Below are positions 9,620-38,608 of a stretch of 49,037 nucleotides of DNA, piece by piece. Position 1 is the stretch's first letter, and the number at the start of each line of letters is the position of its first letter. Position numbers and translations under genes: made by a program. Source of the DNA: a virus. Taxonomy: Duplodnaviria > Heunggongvirae > Uroviricota > Caudoviricetes. Where the stretch lies: IMG/VR virus record IMGVR_UViG_2778261529_000004. One strand, given 5' to 3'. The notes under the pieces are model-generated. The model saw nothing but the letters and a program-made list of their open reading frames with translations, was not told the DNA's origin and did no database searches.

Positions 9620-9871
9620 TTATGACATCTTTTCTTTTAGCTTTTGTAGGGCAACGATCAGTTCATCAATTTGGGTTGCATCCATTATCAACTCTAGTTT
9701 GTGATAAGCCCCGTAATTTAGCTCCTGTGTGTGGAATTCCTGGGCAAGTATTTTTACTCCTCCGCGATTGAGCATTCCTGAGGTGCTAAAAATTTTTGAC
9801 TCGGTTCCAGTAATACTGTCCACCCAAAATTTTTGGGGGAATGGAGCAGACTTATCAAATGTAAAAGACAT
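9620..9871 (-). CDS. Hypothetical protein on the opposite strand, 83 aa
   Basis: Strong RBS (AAAGGAGG then 7 nt then ATG) on the minus strand; convergent with flanking plus-strand genes. Confidence 0.5.
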   Translation of the reverse strand: MSFTFDKSAPFPQKFWVDSITGTESKIFSTSGMLNRGGVKILAQEFHTQELNYGAYHKLELIMDATQIDELIVALQKLKEKMS

Positions 9872-9950
9872 GTCGAACCTCCTTTGGTTCTGTTGATTGG
9901 GGAATCACAGATTATATCCGGAGGAAGGTTCGACACCAGATGAGGCAATT

Positions 9951-11075
9951 ATGGTTAAGGCTAAAAATATGCCAAATCCCATGCCAAAAACTAAGGCAAA
10001 CAATGAGCCTTATCGCAAGGTAAAAATAACGATATGGGATGATCCCAAATTTAGGGCGTTATCTCCTCTGCCTCCAAGTGGACAGAGTTTGTTTATTTAT
10101 CTGCTGACCAGTCCATTTACCGGGATTATTCCTGGGTTGTTTAAAGCCGGGCGGGCAGCAATGGCTGAAGAGTTGGGGTGGGATATCGAAGCCTTTGACT
10201 TAGCCTTAGGCGAAGCCATGAATCTTGGCATGGTGAAAGCAGATATCAAAGCCAGAGTTTTTTGGCTCCCGAATGCTGCGAAACACAATCCGCCAAACTC
10301 GATAAATGTCATTAAATCTTGGGCAAAGGCATTCGCTTTAATTCCTGATTGTCCTCTCAAATGGGAGGCCAGGGAATCGCTGAGAGCCGCGTCCTATGGG
10401 GTTTCTGAGGCTTTGGGGATGGCATTCGATAAGGCAATCCCTTTGCCTGAGGATAAGCCTAAGGATAAGGCTAACGCTTTGTCATGCGGTATCCAGATAA
10501 CAGATAACAGATATATAAACCCCACACATAACGCGCGCGTGCGCGAGAGTGCTCCGGCCAGTGAGGCAAATGGCGTGCCGTTGCAGACAGCGGAACCTGA
10601 TTACCTGGAAGGCCTGAACGAACCCATCGGGAAATTTCCGATGACTGATGGCTGGCATCCGTCGCTGGATTTTCGACGGCGGGCAGCTCTGTGGGGAGTG
10701 GCTCTGCCGGAGCCGGAATTTACACCAGCTGAACTTGCCGCCTTCCGGGACTACTGGGCAGCGGAGGGGAAAGTTTTCACGCAGGTTCAGTGGGAGCAGA
10801 AATTCGCCCGTCACGTAAATCACGTCAGGGCGCAGGTTAAACCAGTCAGCAAGGGGGTGAACCATGCAGCAGCACCAGGTGGCACCGCATCACGGGCAGT
10901 TCAGGAAATTCGGGCAGCACGTGAGCAGTGGGAACGTGAAAACGGATTTATCAGCGACGGAAACGGCCTGGAAGTTGTGGGAACTCATGGGGGAGGTTTA
11001 TTCGAACCGCTGGACCCAGAAGAACGGGGCCGCACCTTCGAAGCTCTGGATTGCACAGATTGGTGCGATGACTGA
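9951..11075 (+). CDS. Putative replication initiation/replisome-organiser protein
   Basis: First large gene after the immunity region; carries iteron-like direct repeats in its middle (as lambda O does); start chosen at the ATG after TGAGG (track ORF from 9897). Confidence 0.45.
10449..10520. repeat. Iteron-like direct repeats followed by an AT-rich stretch (candidate origin)
   Basis: GAGGATAAGCCTAAGGATAAGGCTAAC followed by CCAGATAACAGATAACAGATATATAAA inside the putative replication gene. Confidence 0.35.
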
Positions 11076-19113: not shown

Positions 19114-19491
19114 ATGTCGGGTAAATTCAGATTCAGCCGTCGCAGTGAAAAAAATCTGGAGGGCGTTAAACCACAGCTGGTTGCTGTCGTTCGCCGTGCG
19201 CTGGAGCTGACGGAGGTTGATTTCGGTATTACGGAAGGGCTGCGCACGAAAGAACGCCAGAAACAGCTGGTCGCGGAAGGGAAAAGCCAGACCATGAACA
19301 GCCGCCACCTGACCGGTGATGCGGTGGATGTTGTTGCCTGGGTTGGCAGCCAGGTGTCATGGGACTGGCCTCTGTACGAGAAAATCGCGCAGGCATTTAA
19401 GAAGGCTGCCGCAGAGCTGGGAACTGCCATCGAATGGGGCGGGGACTGGAAAACACTGAAAGACGGGCCTCACTTTCAGTTGAAACTCTGA
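19114..19491 (+). CDS. Endolysin, peptidase M15-like (about 125 aa)
   Basis: Small enzyme-like ORF in the lysis position with His/Asp-containing motifs (SRHLTGDAVDV ... GGDW) resembling M15 peptidase endolysins; RBS GAGGTG upstream. Confidence 0.6.
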   Translation: MSGKFRFSRRSEKNLEGVKPQLVAVVRRALELTEVDFGITEGLRTKERQKQLVAEGKSQTMNSRHLTGDAVDVVAWVGSQVSWDWPLYEKIAQAFKKAAAELGTAIEWGGDWKTLKDGPHFQLKL

Positions 19492-19505
19492 TAACCAGGT
19501 GTGTT

Positions 19506-19724
19506 ATGAGCAGAAAACACTGGACACACAGAATGCCGCGAACGGCGGCGAAATGGGCACTGGTAGCGATACTGGTGCCTTTTTTCCTGGTGGGATGCGT
19601 TAGCCTGGATAAGGCGCGCCAGCTTTTCGATACGGCTTCTCAGGTCTGCGAAATTGTTGACGGTGTTCGGCAGTGTCTGCAGAACTTATCGCCTGTAAGA
19701 GCAGAATATTTTGCTGAAAAATGA
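19506..19724 (+). CDS. Putative lipoprotein (spanin-like or Bor-like), 72 aa
   Basis: Signal peptide with lipobox (LVPFFLVGC); immediately downstream of the endolysin. Confidence 0.45.
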   Translation: MSRKHWTHRMPRTAAKWALVAILVPFFLVGCVSLDKARQLFDTASQVCEIVDGVRQCLQNLSPVRAEYFAEK

Positions 19725-31189: not shown

Positions 31190-32120
31190 AGAATTAGCCG
31201 AACAGCACAGTTCGCAGCTCTCGTCCGTTCTTAAATCAGCAGTTGAAACCATCTCGTCAGACCAGGAAATCACGTTCAGGCTCTATGTCCGGCAGGTTCT
31301 GCCGCTGGATGGCTTTGTCTATTGGGTTAATGCGGAAATCATCAGTTGCGATGAACTGTGTCGTCTGAATATTGAGTCACCAACTCGTCTGAAAATCAAA
31401 GGCAGCCTGCATCGTCAGGTTATTGCGATTCAGGACGAGTCTGTCTCGAAGGATGTGAACAACATTATTTTCACGCCTGTTCAGCAGGTTGATGATTTTA
31501 ATGTGGAAAATCCCGATGCGATCTATCTCGGTGAGTACGGCGGCGTCCAGTTCGCTTTTTCTCGAATGGAGAGCCGCTATCAGCAGTCGGGTATTTTTCA
31601 TTATCGCGGCATGGCGATTTTGCCAACCATGCGTTCCCAGATTATCGACTGCGAGGAGGATATCAGCGACGAGCAGATCATATCCAACAGCATCCCGATC
31701 TGGCTGCAAATGAAAGATGCCGCGACCGTGTATCCGTCTTACTTGGTACCGCAGAACCTTCGCCCTCCGTATATCGCGGTGGATGTTCGCAACAGTATTC
31801 CGTTGCAGGTGGCTCCCGTTGTTTTCGGTGGTGAGCGATTCCAGCTCGTCCAGGATTCGGTTCGCCTGACGCTTTACGGATTCAGCAATAAAATGGCGCT
31901 GGATCTTGTCGACTCGGTGGTGAACAGGGCGCTGGAGGAGGAAAAGTTTGGTGTAACCAATATTCCGGTGGTTCAGGACGCAAAGTCGGGACAGGTTGAA
32001 ATCAACGCTCTGGCGAAGAAAAAGATTGTCGATTTTGACGTGAATTACTACCAGAGCACCGCCCGGGAAATATCCCGGCAGTTGATTGAAAAAGTCATTT
32101 GTAAATATGAGGTTAAATAA
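31176..32120 (+). CDS. Hypothetical structural protein, 314 aa
   Basis: Overlapping ORF in the structural operon immediately upstream of the sheath-like gene. Confidence 0.4.
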   Translation: MPSLEELAEQHSSQLSSVLKSAVETISSDQEITFRLYVRQVLPLDGFVYWVNAEIISCDELCRLNIESPTRLKIKGSLHRQVIAIQDESVSKDVNNIIFTPVQQVDDFNVENPDAIYLGEYGGVQFAFSRMESRYQQSGIFHYRGMAILPTMRSQIIDCEEDISDEQIISNSIPIWLQMKDAATVYPSYLVPQNLRPPYIAVDVRNSIPLQVAPVVFGGERFQLVQDSVRLTLYGFSNKMALDLVDSVVNRALEEEKFGVTNIPVVQDAKSGQVEINALAKKKIVDFDVNYYQSTAREISRQLIEKVICKYEVK

Positions 32121-33457
32121 TGGGGTTTAATATCGTCACGGTGAATGTGTCCCAGACCATCGGGGCCATTCCCTCGAATTCGCAGCAGATGTCCGCTGTT
32201 CTCTCGTTTGGCTCCACGACTCATGAGCCGGGAAAGCCTGTATTACTCACCCGTAATCAGGATATTAACGATCTGGTAAGAAATCCGATTGCTGCGTTGT
32301 CGGCGGCTGCTGCAGGAAAATCTGCGGCAAACGTCACCGTTACGATGACGCTTCCGGAAGGGAGCAACATCCGACGCGAAAACAGTTCTGAGGTGAAAAT
32401 TGTTGTTTCCGGGTGTTCGCCCGACGCGTGGAATGGCGAATATACTGCTACCGTCACGGATGAAAAAACACTGACTTGGACGATTGCTGATTCTCAGCTT
32501 TCCGGTTCGCCAGTGACACTGGGGCAGTTTTCCATTGTTGGCAGTGAAAATCTGGTGACGGCAGTAAACACGTTTTTTGCCCAGGGAAATTCAGTTGGGA
32601 TTTACCTGCTGGAGCTGGGAGTACAGAAAGGTGGAGTCAGTAAGGAAATCGCTGCACTGAAAGCTTATATGGAAGATCCGCTCCTGCGTTTTTATGCGTA
32701 TCTGGTGCCGCAGCCGTGGGATGGTGACGCAGAGTTTATCAGTCTGGCAAAACTCCACACCGCCAACGAAGCGATGCAGTATTTCTTCGTGCTGACGAAA
32801 ACGCCGGACGACACGAATTACGTTTCGCCTTATGCCGGTATTAAGTCGGTTATTGCAACGGCGGATGATACGTACCCGGCGACAAACGCGGCAGCAGCCG
32901 TAATGTGGAACTATGTTTCCGCATCACCTTCAGAAATCAACAAGGTGCCGCCGATGGCATTTCGCTATCTACAGGCGGTAAACGCCCACACGGGCAAAAA
33001 TTCAATTCTGGTCACGATGACGAAGCAGAATATTAACTACGTCGACACGGGGGCTGAGGGGGGAATTTCCAACACGATTCTGGTGAAAGGCGTTACCAGT
33101 GACGGTAACGATATGACGTACTGGTATTCCGTGGACTGGGTGCAGATTAATGTCGATATGCAGCTCGCCAACACGGTGATCAACGGCAGCAATAACTCAA
33201 TTAACCCGCTTTACTACAACCAGGACGGGATCGACCGTCTACAGCAGGTCGCACAGGCGGTGTTCAATACGGGCGTATCTTACGGCCTGGTCAACGGTCA
33301 GCCTGTCGTCGATGCAGTGCCTTTCCGCCAGTATATCAACACTAATCCCAATGATTACGGTATCGGGCGTTATGCAGGCCTTTCGGCCTCCTATACGCCG
33401 ATGCGCGGATTTGTCGAAATCATTTTTAACATCAATGTGACAATGCAGCTTTCGTGA
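32120..33457 (+). CDS. Tail sheath protein (putative), 445 aa
   Basis: Large ORF followed by a tube-sized ORF, a frameshifting chaperone pair and a tape-measure gene; order matches contractile-tail modules. Confidence 0.5.
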   Translation: MGFNIVTVNVSQTIGAIPSNSQQMSAVLSFGSTTHEPGKPVLLTRNQDINDLVRNPIAALSAAAAGKSAANVTVTMTLPEGSNIRRENSSEVKIVVSGCSPDAWNGEYTATVTDEKTLTWTIADSQLSGSPVTLGQFSIVGSENLVTAVNTFFAQGNSVGIYLLELGVQKGGVSKEIAALKAYMEDPLLRFYAYLVPQPWDGDAEFISLAKLHTANEAMQYFFVLTKTPDDTNYVSPYAGIKSVIATADDTYPATNAAAAVMWNYVSASPSEINKVPPMAFRYLQAVNAHTGKNSILVTMTKQNINYVDTGAEGGISNTILVKGVTSDGNDMTYWYSVDWVQINVDMQLANTVINGSNNSINPLYYNQDGIDRLQQVAQAVFNTGVSYGLVNGQPVVDAVPFRQYINTNPNDYGIGRYAGLSASYTPMRGFVEIIFNINVTMQLS

Positions 33458-33468
33458 GGGACTGAACC

Positions 33469-33912
33469 GTGCCTAATCCAATGATCCCCGTTGGCACCCT
33501 TAACCGGGTTCGCGCCAGCGTTAAATTCACCTCCCATTCTGAACTGAATGTGTCCGCCTCATTTCTGGCAAAAGAAGGCGTCGAATTGTCCTTTCAGGGC
33601 AATATCACGGAGTTTTTACCCGCTATGACGGGAGCCGTGCAGTCGCCGCAGCCATACATGATTTTACAGGCGCGTGTTCATCTGCTGCGTAGCCAGGCGC
33701 TGGGAAAACAATTCAAGGCGCAATGGGAAAAGAATGCCACGATCGGCGACGCAAAAGTGTATAGCGACAGCACGGTGTTCGGTGACTTCGATATCTATAA
33801 CACGGCGATCACCAACGTGCAGGATATGACCTTCGCCGGGGGCGAGCCGGGTGTGGCCATCACCATTACTGGTACGTATTACATCAACTCTGAAATGTGG
33901 GATCTGGTATGA
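33469..33912 (+). CDS. Tail tube protein (putative), 147 aa
   Basis: Size and position between sheath and chaperone genes. Confidence 0.5.
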   Translation: MPNPMIPVGTLNRVRASVKFTSHSELNVSASFLAKEGVELSFQGNITEFLPAMTGAVQSPQPYMILQARVHLLRSQALGKQFKAQWEKNATIGDAKVYSDSTVFGDFDIYNTAITNVQDMTFAGGEPGVAITITGTYYINSEMWDLV

Positions 33913-34526
33913 AAATCGCGCGAAATTTAAACCTGATTATTCCTGTCCGGACAGAAAAGGGTAATGGCTGGATCCATGCCACGCCGATCAGCAAAGAGGT
34001 GTTTAAAGAGCATTTCTTCATTCTGAGTAAAACTTTTTCTGCCATTTTTTCAGAAGGTCTTGGCGTCGTTGCGGGTCCGCGTATCGCTTTTTTGATGCTG
34101 GAGCGGATCTCGCGTGATTCTAATATCTGGGAAGGTGATAAAGGGGTCCGTAATACACTTGTTAATGAGGTCATTCGCCTGGCAAACCTTGTTTACCCAG
34201 TGGAGGGTAAAGGCTACGACACAATCCCTCTCGATATGGCGCTGGAGCGTGAAATCATTGATTTGGATGAAGTGGCGGGTGAGCTCATTTTTTTTACATG
34301 CGTCTCGTCGATAAATTCACCGGAGCAGGCGAAGGGGACTATGGATGTGGTCAATGGAGTATGGAGCACTCAATGCTCGTTATTGAATCTTACGGAATGG
34401 ATCGCTTCATTGCCGACATTGAAATCAGCCGCCAGTTCTGGCGCGACGGCGAACACGTCATCAGCGACATCCTCGACTACTCAGCCGGAGCCGGATTCAG
34501 AGACATCTGTGCAGATTCCGGCCTAA
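33909..34526 (+). CDS. Tail assembly chaperone (G-like, zero-frame product)
   Basis: Position between tube and tape measure; contains a T_TTT_TTT slippery heptamer at 34289-34295 where the -1 frame opens into ORF 34298..34591. Confidence 0.5.
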   Translation: MKIARNLNLIIPVRTEKGNGWIHATPISKEVFKEHFFILSKTFSAIFSEGLGVVAGPRIAFLMLERISRDSNIWEGDKGVRNTLVNEVIRLANLVYPVEGKGYDTIPLDMALEREIIDLDEVAGELIFFTCVSSINSPEQAKGTMDVVNGVWSTQCSLLNLTEWIASLPTLKSAASSGATANTSSATSSTTQPEPDSETSVQIPA

Positions 34527-34591
34527 ATGTAAAAACAGCAGCTCAGTTTCGTGAGCTGCTCAAATTCAAAAATCCCGCAGGAGTATTGTGA
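34289..34591 (+). other. Candidate programmed -1 frameshift site and extension frame (GT-like product)
   Basis: Slippery T_TTT_TTT in the zero frame; the -1 frame continues TAC ATG CGT... to a stop at 34589-34591, 1 nt before the tape-measure ATG. Confidence 0.45.
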
Positions 34592-36666
34592 TGGCTGGTA
34601 ACCAGATGCCAGTTCTGACGCTGGATGTTAATGAAGAACACCTCAGGCGGCTTGAGGCGATATTTGAAAAGTATCGCAACGGACTGATGATTGGCCCTGC
34701 CGGTACGCCGCTTAAAATACCTTCAAATACAGGTCCGGGAGGTGGCTCTTGGCAGACAACCACAGGCGGAGAAGCCAATCAGGCTCCCAGGAAACCATCT
34801 TCACCCGCGCCAGTTCTGGCTGCTTCCACTGATGGACGTTTAAGGGATGAAAAATGGCGCTTTGTTGGCAGCGGGAAAACACCTGATTCGCTGGTGAGCA
34901 ACTATAAAGGTCGCGGCGAAACGATGTTTGATAAGTACCTCAGCGGGCTGGGGAAAAAAGCCAAACAGACGCTGAAAACTTACAAGCAGATCAATTCTAC
35001 GCTACGGACGACCACTTCGAGATTAAACAACCTGTTTAAAACCACCGTATCGTGGGGGACAAAACTCGCGGTTATGGGCGTTGCCGGGCCGTTTGGCTTT
35101 GGCATGATGGCTCGTAATGTTGTAGAGAAACAGAAAAATGCTGATGAATTGCAGGCAACGCCAGGAGAGCTAAAGGCGGCAGAAAGCACTTATTCGCCTT
35201 ATTTTTCCGGTGTTGGTAATTTGCTCAATACACTGGCAGCCGCGCAAAATGACACTCAGCATCCTGCCTACAACGGGCTAATTGGATTAGGGATAAATCC
35301 TAAAAAAGGGGCAGCAGAAAATCTTCCTGTATTGTTAGAAAGAGTTGCTGCTCTTGCAAAGGAGTATGAGGGAACCGGACTTACTCAGAGCATGCTCAGA
35401 GGTCGTGGCCTTGGATGGGTAAATTTTGGTATTGCTAACCAGTTAGTCAAATATCAGGACAAAATACCTGAACTCAACAAAGAGTTTTTATCGCGAGCTT
35501 CTCAGAATGACTCGTTGCTCACCTCTGGACATACAAGCCAGTATCAGAATCTTACCAGCAACTTAGAAAATAACTGGGATCAACTTACCAGCGGATTTCA
35601 GGGGGCAATGTCGGGTAACTCTGTACAGCTAATTAGAATATCTAATGGTGTAAAGAATGCTGGTCTAAATTTCCTTAACGGTGAGAACTTTAAAAGAATT
35701 TTGACTGATGTTGAAACAGGTCTGGATAAACTTGGTAAGTATGTAAATGGCCCGCATTTTAATAACGACCTGAATAATTTTGCCGAAAATGTTGCAAAGG
35801 TTGTTAAGGCACTTAGCGGGTTTGTTGGTTTTGCGGTTGAACATCCCTGGCTTTTTGGGGCCGCAGTACTTGCTGGACCATCGAGAGTTGGTGCTGTGGC
35901 AGCCACAACGACCGGAGTTGCCGCCCGTGTTGTTGGTGGAAGTCTTCTTGGGGCTACAGCCGGAACAGTAGCTGGATTGGCTATTCCTACAAATGACACA
36001 CCTACCACCAGTGAGGAAATGAAAGGGCTGGAGGGGCGTTTCAACTTTGATTATTTTAACGAAGTGCAGGAGTGGCAAAAAAACAATCCGGGTAAGGTCT
36101 GGCCTGGAGGATTGCAGGGATTTTCAAATCAAGTAAACAGATCTGCATATTTATCCAGAGGGATCAGGAATAACAATCCCGGAAATCTTAATTTCGCAGG
36201 ACAAAAAGGGGCTACCCTGGAATCGGGGCCAAATGCCCGTTTTGCCAGCTTCCCGACGATGCTGGAAGGCATTGCTGCCTTAGATCGGCAAGTAATGCTA
36301 TACCTGAAACGCGGCAAAAATACGATTGATCAGATTATTGATATTTATGCCCCTTCATCTGATGGAAATAACACATCGTCCTATAAAAGCTATCTCTCTC
36401 AGTACACTGGATTAGGTGTTAAGGAGAAAATCGATGGTTCTAATTTTGAGATAATGAGAAAGCTAATTCAGGGCATTATTAACCATGAAAATGGGGACGC
36501 CGCTCGTGCAGTAAGTGGCGATGATGTGATGCGGGCGCTGGCAATGAACCGGGGGAAGGTATATTCACCAAATAATACTTCTCAGGTAATCAGGCTCGAC
36601 GTTCAACAAAAACCAGGTTCCGACATACTGGCACAACTCGCCGGAATGCAACAAATACCGGGGTAA
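34591..36666 (+). CDS. Tail tape measure protein (putative), about 691 aa
   Basis: Largest tail ORF immediately after the chaperone pair; Gly/Ala-rich hydrophobic stretch (GAAVLAGPSRVGAVAATTTGVAARVVGG); C-terminal globular region with NNPGNL motif. Confidence 0.55.
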   Translation: MAGNQMPVLTLDVNEEHLRRLEAIFEKYRNGLMIGPAGTPLKIPSNTGPGGGSWQTTTGGEANQAPRKPSSPAPVLAASTDGRLRDEKWRFVGSGKTPDSLVSNYKGRGETMFDKYLSGLGKKAKQTLKTYKQINSTLRTTTSRLNNLFKTTVSWGTKLAVMGVAGPFGFGMMARNVVEKQKNADELQATPGELKAAESTYSPYFSGVGNLLNTLAAAQNDTQHPAYNGLIGLGINPKKGAAENLPVLLERVAALAKEYEGTGLTQSMLRGRGLGWVNFGIANQLVKYQDKIPELNKEFLSRASQNDSLLTSGHTSQYQNLTSNLENNWDQLTSGFQGAMSGNSVQLIRISNGVKNAGLNFLNGENFKRILTDVETGLDKLGKYVNGPHFNNDLNNFAENVAKVVKALSGFVGFAVEHPWLFGAAVLAGPSRVGAVAATTTGVAARVVGGSLLGATAGTVAGLAIPTNDTPTTSEEMKGLEGRFNFDYFNEVQEWQKNNPGKVWPGGLQGFSNQVNRSAYLSRGIRNNNPGNLNFAGQKGATLESGPNARFASFPTMLEGIAALDRQVMLYLKRGKNTIDQIIDIYAPSSDGNNTSSYKSYLSQYTGLGVKEKIDGSNFEIMRKLIQGIINHENGDAARAVSGDDVMRALAMNRGKVYSPNNTSQVIRLDVQQKPGSDILAQLAGMQQIPG

Positions 36667-37338: not shown

Positions 37339-37601
37339 CAACGTTAATTCCTTTCAAACCTGACGGGCGAGGACCATTTCAGTTCACTGCCAGAATCGGA
37401 GAATATGAAACATTCGCCCGCGTTCCGTTTAATCTGTATGCAAATCGTTACTACCTGGAACTGAAAGACAGTTCAGGCGACGTGATTGTATACATGCCTT
37501 TGATCGCGTCACCTGACAGTTACGACATCAATCTGGCGCTGCCTTGCTCTCCGGGGAAACTTGTTTTTCGCGAAAGTACGAATCAGTTTGAGGTTTCGTA
37601 A
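37335..37601 (+). CDS. Small tail/baseplate protein, 88 aa
   Basis: Overlapping start/stop with neighbours in the baseplate block. Confidence 0.4.
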   Translation: MTTLIPFKPDGRGPFQFTARIGEYETFARVPFNLYANRYYLELKDSSGDVIVYMPLIASPDSYDINLALPCSPGKLVFRESTNQFEVS

Positions 37602-38608
37602 TGCGTTATTACCGACTGGAAATTATTAATCCTAAAACAGGCAAGCCGCCAGTGGATAGCAATGGAAAACCCATTGGACCTTTTGATACCAATGAAACAC
37701 CAGGATGTGGGTTGCATGTTGAATTTGACTTTGAAGTAACCGGCCTGGATGTAGTCTGTTCGGGTACGATGCTGACGATCTATGGATTACCAATTGACAT
37801 GCTGAAGCAAAGCGTAAGTTTGCAGGGTTGTCTGGTACGTATGAAAGCAGGCTTTGTTCAGGGGTTACCACTGGCAAATAAGGATCAACAGGGGGAGGTA
37901 ATCTATGGTGAAATTTATCTGGCCTATGCCAACTGGATCGGCACGAACCAGACTTTAAACCTGGTAATAAATCCAAGCATACGCAAAACCGATGACGGTA
38001 ACCCTTTTTCAATTGAGGGGCAGGGGGAAGCAGGGGAAAGGGTGGGTGATGTTTTAGTCCGCGCTTTGCAAAAAGCATATCCCAATAAACTTATTGATTG
38101 CACAGTCAGCGACAACCTGGTTTTGCCAGAGCCGTGGACGGGCAAATATACGGAGATTGGTTCGCTGGCTATGGTCGTAAAAAACGCCTCTATTGCGATG
38201 ATGCGTAATGAAAGGTATAGCGGAATCGCCATCAGTATTCTTTCCGACAGAATACGAATCTACGATAACGCATCGGCAAAGTGGGGTGAGCCAAAAACAA
38301 TTCATGCCCATGAACTGGTCGGGCAGCCGACATGGATAGCGCCGTTTACCGTCAGTTTCAAATGCCCTATGAGAGGCGATATCAGATGTGGTGATGTGGT
38401 TAAACTGCCGGAGGGGCTATATTCTGGCGCTGCGTCGATTGTGATGGCTAATACAACGGTACCCAGCGTTATCGCAAAAAATTCGACCACGTTCACCGGG
38501 AAATTTCTTGTGAAATCAGTCAGACACATTGGTTCGTATCTGACAGCCGATGGCGATGCCTGGGTGACGGTATTTGAGGCATATGCTGAGAACTGGGCGA
38601 GGGTGTAA
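37601..38608 (+). CDS. Baseplate hub-like protein (putative), 335 aa
   Basis: Position preceding the spike-like gene. Confidence 0.4.
   Translation: MRYYRLEIINPKTGKPPVDSNGKPIGPFDTNETPGCGLHVEFDFEVTGLDVVCSGTMLTIYGLPIDMLKQSVSLQGCLVRMKAGFVQGLPLANKDQQGEVIYGEIYLAYANWIGTNQTLNLVINPSIRKTDDGNPFSIEGQGEAGERVGDVLVRALQKAYPNKLIDCTVSDNLVLPEPWTGKYTEIGSLAMVVKNASIAMMRNERYSGIAISILSDRIRIYDNASAKWGEPKTIHAHELVGQPTWIAPFTVSFKCPMRGDIRCGDVVKLPEGLYSGAASIVMANTTVPSVIAKNSTTFTGKFLVKSVRHIGSYLTADGDAWVTVFEAYAENWARV

What the first reader, a model, noticed from the sequence alone, without database searches (positions are those of the whole stretch)
33909..34591. Programmed -1 ribosomal frameshift in the tail assembly chaperone
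Between tube and tape-measure genes, a T_TTT_TTT heptamer (34289-34295) lies in the zero frame of the chaperone ORF exactly where the -1 frame opens (TAC ATG CGT...) and runs to a stop 1 nt before the tape-measure start. This is the conserved G/GT-type frameshift architecture, here with an unusual all-T slippery site.
Basis: seen in the sequence. Interest (0 to 1): 0.45.

Follow-up and report, generated by a model that had tools for sequence, protein, structure and literature searches.

The report
Tail chaperone frameshift, mid-gene slip site
This E. coli prophage almost certainly makes two tail-assembly chaperone proteins from one start codon by a -1 ribosomal slip on T_TTT_TTT; this is a well-known phage trick, here found in a family where nobody has annotated it and placed unusually far from the end of the gene.

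Summary
T_TTT_TTT (34289-34295) is in zero-frame register in the ORF that starts at 33909. The -1 frame is closed by TGA at 34280-34282. It then runs 98 codons to TGA at 34589-34591, which shares one base with the tape-measure ATG.

The frameshift reading is strongly supported by comparison. Of 239 mapped related loci (140 non-redundant, down to about 32% identity, GC 36-65%), 236 carry the in-register heptamer. In 36 divergent lineages both Phe codons are TTT (72 to 0, against 71 TTT to 74 TTC elsewhere). The preceding codon always ends in T although it encodes five different amino acids. Most distant relatives have no ATG near the start of the -1 ORF, and many have none at all. The window's ATG at 34298 has no usable Shine-Dalgarno. 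No conserved downstream RNA structure exists, as in P2.

Both arms are conserved. G (205 aa) and GT (227 aa) therefore share only 129 residues and then diverge.

The proteins match no known chaperone family by sequence or fold. GenBank and RefSeq annotate no frameshift. This is a new member of a known kind, of moderate interest.

The parts
33909..34526 (+). Zero-frame ORF, the 'G' chaperone form. It is 205 aa with stop TAA at 34524-34526. Residues 1-167 are predicted to fold and 170-205 to be disordered.
   Evidence: ORF list. phrog_11810 matches full length at E 1.9e-89. The AF2 model has pLDDT 88 with the fold covering residues 1-167. It is annotated as a hypothetical protein in pPE4, Rac-SA53 and RefSeq.
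34289..34295 (+). Slippery heptamer T_TTT_TTT in zero-frame register. The P-site codon is TTT 34290-34292 and the A-site codon is TTT 34293-34295. It encodes F128 and F129.
   Evidence: It is conserved in 236 of 239 related loci. F128 and F129 are invariant in protein alignments at 30-43% identity.
34280..34282 (+). TGA that closes the -1 frame 6 nt upstream of the heptamer, so the -1 frame opens only at the slip site.
   Evidence: In nearly all relatives the -1 frame is closed 4-13 codons upstream of the heptamer.
34295..34591 (+). The -1 frame arm, the 'T' part. It has 98 codons (YMRLVDK...PAGVL) plus TGA at 34589-34591, and reaches the tape-measure start.
   Evidence: phrog_14324 matches at E 1.8e-62. 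The conserved core is ELYG..F..DIDR.R.FWRDG..VS..LD..A.EGF....AHEFRQR. Substitutions are at the third position of the -1 frame from about nt 540 of the gene onward.
33909..34591 (+). Predicted frameshift product 'GT', 227 aa: residues 1-129 from 33909-34295, then 98 residues from 34295-34588.
   Evidence: The junction ...ELIFF|YMRLV... appears as a continuous ORF in rare T9 variants: P0001 on 6 contigs, and loci L021 and L078. The AF2 model shows an N-terminal domain, a disordered linker at 139-150, and a helical C-terminal part, with pLDDT 75.
34296..34526 (+). Dual-coding overlap of 231 nt (77 zero-frame codons including the stop), read in both the zero and the -1 frame.
   Evidence: The phase of sequence diversity switches from the zero-frame pattern (to about nt 510 of the gene) to the -1 pattern (from about nt 540). 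Both frames are open in 36 of 36 lineages, although synonymous resampling gives about 0.14 and 0.06 per lineage. Both arms are conserved as proteins.
34298..34300 (+). ATG in the -1 frame 2 nt after the heptamer. It is probably just a Met codon of GT, not a start codon.
   Evidence: The best anti-SD pairing is -3.8 kcal/mol and lies 16 nt upstream. Neighbouring genes have -6.2 to -6.9 kcal/mol at 4-8 nt. The ATG is absent at this position in distant relatives, many of which have no ATG anywhere in the -1 ORF.
32120..33457 (+). Tail sheath gene (context).
   Evidence: phrog_205 'tail sheath', E 4.7e-53.
33469..33912 (+). Gene in the tail-tube position, 147 aa (context). Its stop overlaps the chaperone ATG (ATGA).
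   Evidence: phrog_6566, function unnamed. The same position is kept in RothC, Chronis and PdC23. The tube identity is inferred from position only.
34591..36666 (+). Tape-measure-position gene with a C-terminal lytic transglycosylase region (context).
   Evidence: phrog_7694 matches full length and phrog_2276 'tail length tape measure protein' matches residues 498-639. It is annotated as a lytic transglycosylase or tape measure protein in relatives. A baseplate hub gene (phrog_196) lies at 37601-38608.

Best explanation
Gene 33909-34526 encodes a tail assembly chaperone of a contractile-tailed prophage.

Most ribosomes read straight through and make G (205 aa). A small fraction slips when the two tRNA-Phe occupy UUU(P) and UUU(A) on U_UUU_UUU. 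Both tRNAs re-pair one base back, which is perfect re-pairing. The next codon read is then UAC at 34295, and translation continues in the -1 frame to the UGA that abuts the tape-measure start. The result is GT (227 aa).

G and GT share residues 1-129. G then finishes its own fold (residues 130-167) and ends in a disordered Ser/Thr-rich tail. GT instead carries a variable linker and a helical 'T' domain.

By analogy with lambda G/GT and P2 E/E+E', the shared part would coat the tape-measure protein, and the T domain of the rare GT would recruit the tube subunit.

No RNA stimulator is present, so efficiency is probably low (a few percent or less), giving a large G to GT ratio.

Shown here: the sequence anatomy, the conservation, dual coding, and the lack of an independent start. 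Inferred: that slippage occurs on the ribosome, its efficiency, and the chaperone function.
For: - Anatomy.
- Heptamer register: the in-register heptamer is conserved in 236 of 239 loci. In many lineages the run is exactly 7 T because the preceding codon is ACT, GCT or TGT, so the conserved unit is the heptamer and not a long run.
- Frozen synonymous sites: slip-site Phe codons are TTT 72 to TTC 0, against 71 to 74 elsewhere. The codon before ends in T in 36 of 36 lineages across five amino acids. GC ranges from 36 to 65%.
- Frame opening: the -1 frame is closed just upstream and open for 97-116 codons downstream in all lineages.
- No independent start: the -1 ORF has no ATG in RothC, Chronis, PdC23 and many metagenomic relatives. 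The window's ATG has no SD.
- Both arms are real proteins: both are conserved, and open frames in both arms cannot be explained by chance.
- Gene order: sheath, tube-position gene, this gene, tape-measure gene, baseplate hub.
- End of the -1 arm: it ends on the tape-measure start, as in lambda and P2.
- Precedent: P2 uses TTTTTTG without a stimulatory structure. UUY codons and homogeneous motifs are shift-prone in E. coli.
Against: - No protein product has been observed.
- U_UUU_UUU without a stimulator is a weak shifter in E. coli reporters.
- The slip site lies mid-gene, unlike the paradigms.
- A single-U insertion by RNA polymerase would give the same protein.
Confidence: 0.85

Rival explanations
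1. Transcriptional slippage. RNA polymerase stutters on the T8 (A8 template) tract and adds one U to a fraction of mRNAs. Standard translation of those mRNAs then yields the same 227-aa GT protein.
For: The tract is a homopolymer of 8 in the window. UUUUUUU is under-represented in all three frames of enterobacterial genes, possibly because of slippage. T9 DNA variants encode exactly the fused protein, so a +1 U transcript would work.
Against: Productive bacterial slippage is described on runs of 9 A or T. Here the run is 8, and in many lineages only 7. What is conserved is the exact X_XXY_YYZ register, down to the third base of a variable preceding codon. Polymerase slippage has no need for that register. 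No lineage has lengthened the run, although that would favour slippage.
Confidence: 0.08
2. Two separate overlapping genes. The 97-aa ORF is translated on its own from ATG 34298. The T run would then be only a U-rich leader or a coincidence of Val/Ile-Phe-Phe codons.
For: In the window's clade an ATG follows the run by 2 nt and is conserved there. PHROGs holds the 97-aa ORF as a family of its own, phrog_14324.
Against: There is no Shine-Dalgarno in range (-3.8 kcal/mol at 16 nt). Distant relatives keep the T domain and the heptamer but have no ATG at that place, and often none in the whole -1 ORF. Frozen synonymous sites in the heptamer are not explained by zero-frame coding. The residue after the junction is an invariant Tyr encoded upstream of the ATG.
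Confidence: 0.04
3. Artefact or decay. A homopolymer sequencing error or a frameshift mutation has split a single 227-aa gene.
For: A few database entries have a continuous 227-aa ORF with T9: P0001, L021 and L078.
Against: The T8 form, with its exact 205-aa protein, is on more than 1000 contigs and in 92 complete E. coli genomes. The split form is the rule across 140 non-redundant loci from many environments. The zero-frame extension is itself a conserved, confidently folded protein segment. The T9 contig L078 still keeps the other arm open.
Confidence: 0.02

Closest known systems
Phage lambda gpG / gpGT (programmed -1 frameshift at G_GGA_AAG; Levin et al. 1993, Xu et al. 2004, as summarised in PMC5009743)
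   Same: The gene lies directly upstream of the tape-measure gene. Two products come from one start codon. A -1 shift occurs on an X_XXY_YYZ heptamer. The downstream arm ends on the tape-measure start: lambda T ends at 10549 and H starts at 10542, while here the stop at 34591 shares a base with the ATG at 34591. The expected outcome is a low shift frequency and a large G to GT ratio.
   Different: In lambda the slip site is about 6 codons before the G stop (G is 9711-10133 and T is annotated from 10115), so GT contains nearly all of G. Here it is 77 codons before the stop, so GT lacks 76 residues of G. Lambda is a siphovirus and this is a sheath-bearing tail. The heptamer differs. No sequence or fold similarity was detected.
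Phage P2 gpE / gpE+E' (-1 frameshift at TTTTTTG; Christie et al. 2002, cited in PMC3091744)
   Same: Both have a contractile tail and a gene between the tube gene (FII) and the tape-measure gene (T). The U-rich heptamer differs only in its last base. There is no downstream stimulatory structure. The shifted product overlaps the tape-measure start.
   Different: The P2 slip site at 19685 is about 6-7 codons before the E stop at 19705. E is 91 aa and E+E' 142 aa, against 205 and 227 aa here. There is no Pfam Phage_E-type or other chaperone-family match.
Unannotated homologues: Escherichia phage Rac-SA53 rac52, 'Actinobacillus' phage vB_Apl-pPE4 gp55, Klebsiella phages Chronis gp13 and RothC, Pantoea phage PdC23 pdc_014 (genus Certevirus)
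   Same: They share the gene family, the gene order, the T_TTT_TTT site and the two arms.
   Different: All are annotated as a single hypothetical protein with no slippage. The distant ones lack the ATG after the heptamer and have a shorter zero-frame arm of 62-68 codons.

Membership tests
G/GT-type tail assembly chaperone recoding (lambda G/GT, P2 E/E+E'; Xu et al. 2004 criteria) | The gene pair lies between the major tail or tube gene and the tape-measure gene. | tested here: met
   The order is sheath (phrog_205), a tube-position gene, this gene, a tape-measure-position gene (phrog_7694 and phrog_2276) and a baseplate hub (phrog_196). Relatives keep the same order.
G/GT-type tail assembly chaperone recoding (lambda G/GT, P2 E/E+E'; Xu et al. 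2004 criteria) | The second ORF is in the -1 frame and is joined to the first through an in-register X_XXY_YYZ slippery heptamer. | tested here: met
   T_TTT_TTT at 34289-34295 is in zero-frame register, and the -1 frame opens at 34283.
G/GT-type tail assembly chaperone recoding (lambda G/GT, P2 E/E+E'; Xu et al. 2004 criteria) | The slip site and the two-frame arrangement are conserved among divergent relatives. | tested here: met
   236 of 239 loci carry the heptamer. Synonymous sites are frozen in 36 lineages with under 70% identity.
G/GT-type tail assembly chaperone recoding (lambda G/GT, P2 E/E+E'; Xu et al. 2004 criteria) | The downstream ORF has no translation start of its own. | tested here: met
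   Across the family there is no ATG near the 5' end, and often none at all. In the window an ATG is present but has no SD.
G/GT-type tail assembly chaperone recoding (lambda G/GT, P2 E/E+E'; Xu et al. 2004 criteria) | The slip site lies a few codons before the stop of the upstream ORF, so the long form contains almost all of the short form. | tested here: not met
   The distance is 77 codons here and 58-76 across the family. It is about 6 codons in lambda and P2. Only 129 of the 205 residues of G are shared.
G/GT-type tail assembly chaperone recoding (lambda G/GT, P2 E/E+E'; Xu et al. 2004 criteria) | Sequence or fold homology to a recognised chaperone family (gpG/gpT, P2 E, Pfam Phage_TAC families). 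| tested here: not met
G/GT-type tail assembly chaperone recoding (lambda G/GT, P2 E/E+E'; Xu et al. 2004 criteria) | Two N-terminally identical products are detected, both are needed for tail assembly, and neither is in the virion. | not testable with these tools
   This needs proteomics and genetics.
Productive transcriptional slippage sites | A homopolymer run of about 9 or more A or T, independent of codon register. | tested here: not met
   The run is 8 in the window and 7 in many relatives. The register is strictly conserved. The figure of 9 comes from the review.
PHROG families phrog_11810 (zero-frame protein) and phrog_14324 (-1 ORF) | A full-length profile match. | tested here: met
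   E 1.9e-89 over residues 1-200 of a 201-position profile, and E 1.8e-62 over 97 of 97 positions. Both families are listed as 'unknown function'.

The most novel reading that the evidence does not exclude
This may be a distinct, widespread chaperone architecture in which the recoding site sits inside the chaperone fold. AF2 places it in helix 119-135. The two products would then bifurcate rather than nest.

G would complete its fold with 38 residues and a disordered tail. GT would swap these for a linker and a helical T domain. Both arms are encoded by a 180-230-nt dual-coding stretch that is maintained from enterobacterial prophages to phages in freshwater, peat and soil metagenomes. The constrained part of each frame lies over the unconstrained part of the other.

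If the G-only segment has its own role, such as oligomerisation or release from the tape measure, the G to GT division of labour would differ from the lambda model.
Probability: 0.5. Interest if true: 0.5.

Novelty: new member of a known kind. Interest (0 to 1): 0.35.

Why it matters
Tail chaperone frameshifting is textbook biology, so the mechanism adds no new principle. The practical value is in three places.

- Annotation: a prophage family present in about 2% of complete E. coli genomes, and its relatives (Chronis/Roth Klebsiella phages, Pantoea Certevirus, many environmental phages), lacks the GT product in every record examined. The T domain is either unannotated or called as an orphan ORF.
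- Mechanism of chaperone action: the 230-nt overlap, with both arms conserved, is a clean natural example of dual coding built around a recoding site. It offers a way to test which part of a chaperone is needed in the abundant form and which in the rare form.

Tried and rejected
- Downstream stimulator: folding of 34289-34400 gives z = +0.6. RNAalifold on 36 lineages over 110 nt finds 0 pairs. I conclude there is no conserved structure.
- Upstream SD-like stimulator: the GGN-GAR (Gly-Glu) sequence 5 nt upstream varies at its synonymous sites and disappears in distant relatives. Rejected.
- 'Rosetta-stone' fused homologues: 227-263-aa proteins in the representative library looked like natural fusions. 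The one contig I could retrieve has a T9 run with the other arm still intact. I therefore treat them as homopolymer variants or errors, not as independent evidence.
A scan with P0169 returned nothing. A shallower 11-sequence alignment was used instead, so the GT model is only moderate, at pLDDT 75.
- Christie et al. 2002 (PMC135442) is not held. P2 coordinates were taken from the GenBank record instead.
- The chance frequency of T7 runs in the window is not significant on its own.

Full report
**1. What is in the sequence**

The ORF starting at ATG 33909 overlaps the stop of the preceding 147-aa gene as ATGA. In its own frame it reads ...G E L I F F T C V... across 34278-34330. The T run is 8 nt long (34288-34295). 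The codons are ATT TTT TTT, so T_TTT_TTT at 34289-34295 is an X_XXY_YYZ heptamer in zero-frame register.

In the -1 frame there is a TGA at 34280-34282, followed by A H F F Y M R L V D K. From TAC at 34295 this frame stays open for 98 codons to TGA at 34589-34591. The final A of that stop is the A of the tape-measure ATG at 34591.

It continues for 77 more codons to TAA at 34524-34526, giving a 205-aa protein. T7 runs as such are not rare in the window, with 33 found against 26 +/- 7 expected. The motif alone therefore proves nothing.

**2. Context**

The upstream genes are a tail sheath (phrog_205, E 5e-53) and a 147-aa gene in the tube position. Downstream lies a 691-aa protein in the tape-measure position with a C-terminal lytic transglycosylase region. 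Two small genes and a baseplate hub (phrog_196) follow. This is the tail module of a contractile-tailed phage.

The zero-frame protein and the -1 ORF each match a PHROG of unknown function over their full length. They match nothing in Pfam or NCBIfam.

**3. Not an error**

- The exact 205-aa protein occurs on more than 1000 contigs (P0012).
- The region is in 92 of 5426 complete E. coli genomes.
- Close phage records (Rac-SA53, vB_Apl-pPE4) and RefSeq annotate only the 205-aa CDS and no slippage.
- A few database proteins of 227 aa carry exactly the predicted junction ...IFF|YMR.... Where DNA was available they have a T9 run (L021, L078), and the other arm is still open. I read these as homopolymer variants or errors.

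**4. Comparative test of the slip site**

I collected 242 related loci from viral, genome and metagenome collections. Of these, 140 are non-redundant, and identity to the window's protein runs from 100% down to about 32%.

The codons aligned to F128-F129, together with the preceding base, read TTTTTTT in 236 of 239 mapped loci. The exceptions are TTTTTTC, CTTTTTT and one truncated contig.

In 36 lineages with less than 70% identity in the -1 arm (GC 36-65%):
- Slip-site Phe codons are TTT 72 to TTC 0, while other Phe codons of the same genes are TTT 71 to TTC 74.
- The preceding codon is GTT, ATT, TGT, ACT or GCT. That is five different amino acids, always ending in T, against 24% T at third positions overall.
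- In many lineages the run is therefore exactly 7 T.

What is conserved is the in-register heptamer, not a long homopolymer. The next base is invariably A.

**5. The -1 arm has no start of its own**

In nearly all lineages the -1 frame is closed 4-13 codons upstream of the heptamer and open for 97-116 codons after it.

The window's clade has an ATG 2 nt after the run. Its best anti-SD pairing is -3.8 kcal/mol and lies 16 nt upstream. Neighbouring genes have -6.2 to -6.9 kcal/mol at 4-8 nt.

In distant relatives that ATG is absent. RothC, Chronis, PdC23 and many metagenomic loci have no ATG anywhere in the -1 ORF. The Tyr codon that precedes the window's ATG is invariant in the fused alignment.

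**6. Both arms are real coding sequence**

- Among close relatives, nucleotide diversity peaks at the zero-frame third position up to the slip site. It still does so at nt 387-420 and 480-510 of the gene, where overall diversity is very low. From about nt 540 the peak switches to the -1 frame third position.
- At 30-43% identity the zero-frame arm keeps the motif FF..x.S...K....L.....LW....TSL..TE...SL.
- The -1 arm keeps FFY.RL, then about 25 variable residues, then ELYG...F..DIDR.R.FWRDG...VS..LD..A.EGF....AHEFRQR.
- Resampling synonymous codons of one arm leaves the other frame open with probability of only about 0.14 (zero frame) or 0.06 (-1 frame) per lineage. All 36 lineages have both frames open.
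- AF2 with 36 homologues folds G confidently (pLDDT 88). Residues 1-167 form one domain, and helix 119-135 runs straight through the slip site. Residues 130-167 score 94-96, and residues 170-205 are disordered.
- The GT model used a shallow alignment (pLDDT 75). It shows the same N-terminal domain, a disordered linker at 139-150 and a helical C-terminal part.

The structured part of each arm thus lies over the unconstrained part of the other.

**7. Mechanism**

The best explanation is tandem -1 slippage of two tRNA-Phe on U_UUU_UUU, yielding G (205 aa) and GT (227 aa).

There is no downstream structure in the window (z = +0.6). There is no conserved pairing in 36 lineages. There is no conserved upstream SD-like element. 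This matches P2, whose TTTTTTG site also lacks a stimulator.

UUY A-site codons and pyrimidine-homogeneous heptamers are among the more shift-prone motifs in E. coli. Without stimulators the levels are low, and U_UUU_UUU is much weaker than A_AAA_AAG. That fits the need for a rare long form, about 30 to 1 in lambda.

Transcriptional slippage would give the same protein. It is disfavoured because described productive sites use runs of 9, whereas this family conserves 7 in strict register.

**8. Comparison with known systems**

This locus works like lambda G/GT and P2 E/E+E'. It shares their genomic position, the single start codon, the -1 heptamer, and a long form that ends on the tape-measure start.

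It differs in two ways:
- In lambda and P2 the site is about 6 codons before the short form's stop (G is 9711-10133 with T annotated from 10115; E is 19430-19705 with the shift at 19685). Here it is 77 codons, and 58-76 across the family. GT therefore lacks 76 residues of G, 38 of which belong to its predicted fold.

The chaperone function is therefore inferred from position and architecture, not from homology.

**9. Verdict**

The case is an unannotated member of a very well-known class, with a mid-gene slip site and a long conserved dual-coding overlap as its distinctive features. Interest is moderate. The direct test is detection of the junction peptide EIIDLDEVAGELIFFYMR in induced lysogens.

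Noticed in passing
L021/L136 (IMGVR_UViG_2896595138_000001), L074, L078; proteins P0001-P0004: Rare database variants have a T9 run, or other indels, that fuse the two arms into one 226-233-aa ORF. In L078 the displaced arm is still an intact conserved ORF. They are probably homopolymer sequencing errors, but genuine T8/T9 length polymorphism in phage populations is not excluded.
   Followed up: partly
L001 (PP818812.1, 'Actinobacillus phage vB_Apl-pPE4'): A phage recorded with Actinobacillus pleuropneumoniae as host is 93% identical at the DNA level to this E. coli, Shigella and Salmonella prophage family over the tail module. The host assignment looks doubtful, or the phage may come from a contaminating or co-resident enterobacterium.
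   Followed up: no
window 34591-36666: The tape-measure-position protein carries a lytic transglycosylase-like region at residues ~500-650 (phrog_2276, phrog_873, phrog_7182). Relatives annotate the whole protein simply as 'lytic transglycosylase'.
   Followed up: partly
window 34296; alignment A4 column 8: The base after the heptamer is A in all 36 divergent lineages (TTTTTTTA[C/T]). This gives an invariant Tyr (TAY) as the first -1 codon and Thr, Ile or Met in the zero frame. It could reflect dual-coding constraint or a 3' context effect on slippage.
   Followed up: no
window 34518-34529 and the homologous site in L001/L002: The zero-frame stop (TAA, or TGA in relatives) is embedded in a conserved Leu-Asn pair of the -1 frame (CTA AAT, TTG AAT or CTG AAT). 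In more distant lineages the zero frame stops about 17 codons earlier, after a recurring ...S-[VIL]-P-[SHA] C-terminus. Whether that C-terminal motif is selected or merely a by-product of the -1 frame motif H-[IV]-V-S was not resolved.
   Followed up: partly
window 32120-33912: The sheath gene has no Pfam sheath-domain hit (only phrog_205). The 147-aa tube-position protein belongs to a PHROG of unknown function and has no PDB sequence relative. The whole tail module is a poorly characterised lineage.
   Followed up: partly
E. coli genome search: The locus occurs in 92 of 5426 complete E. coli genomes, always on the chromosome, at up to 4 places in one genome. Identities span 80-100%, so several related prophages can coexist in one strain.
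   Followed up: no
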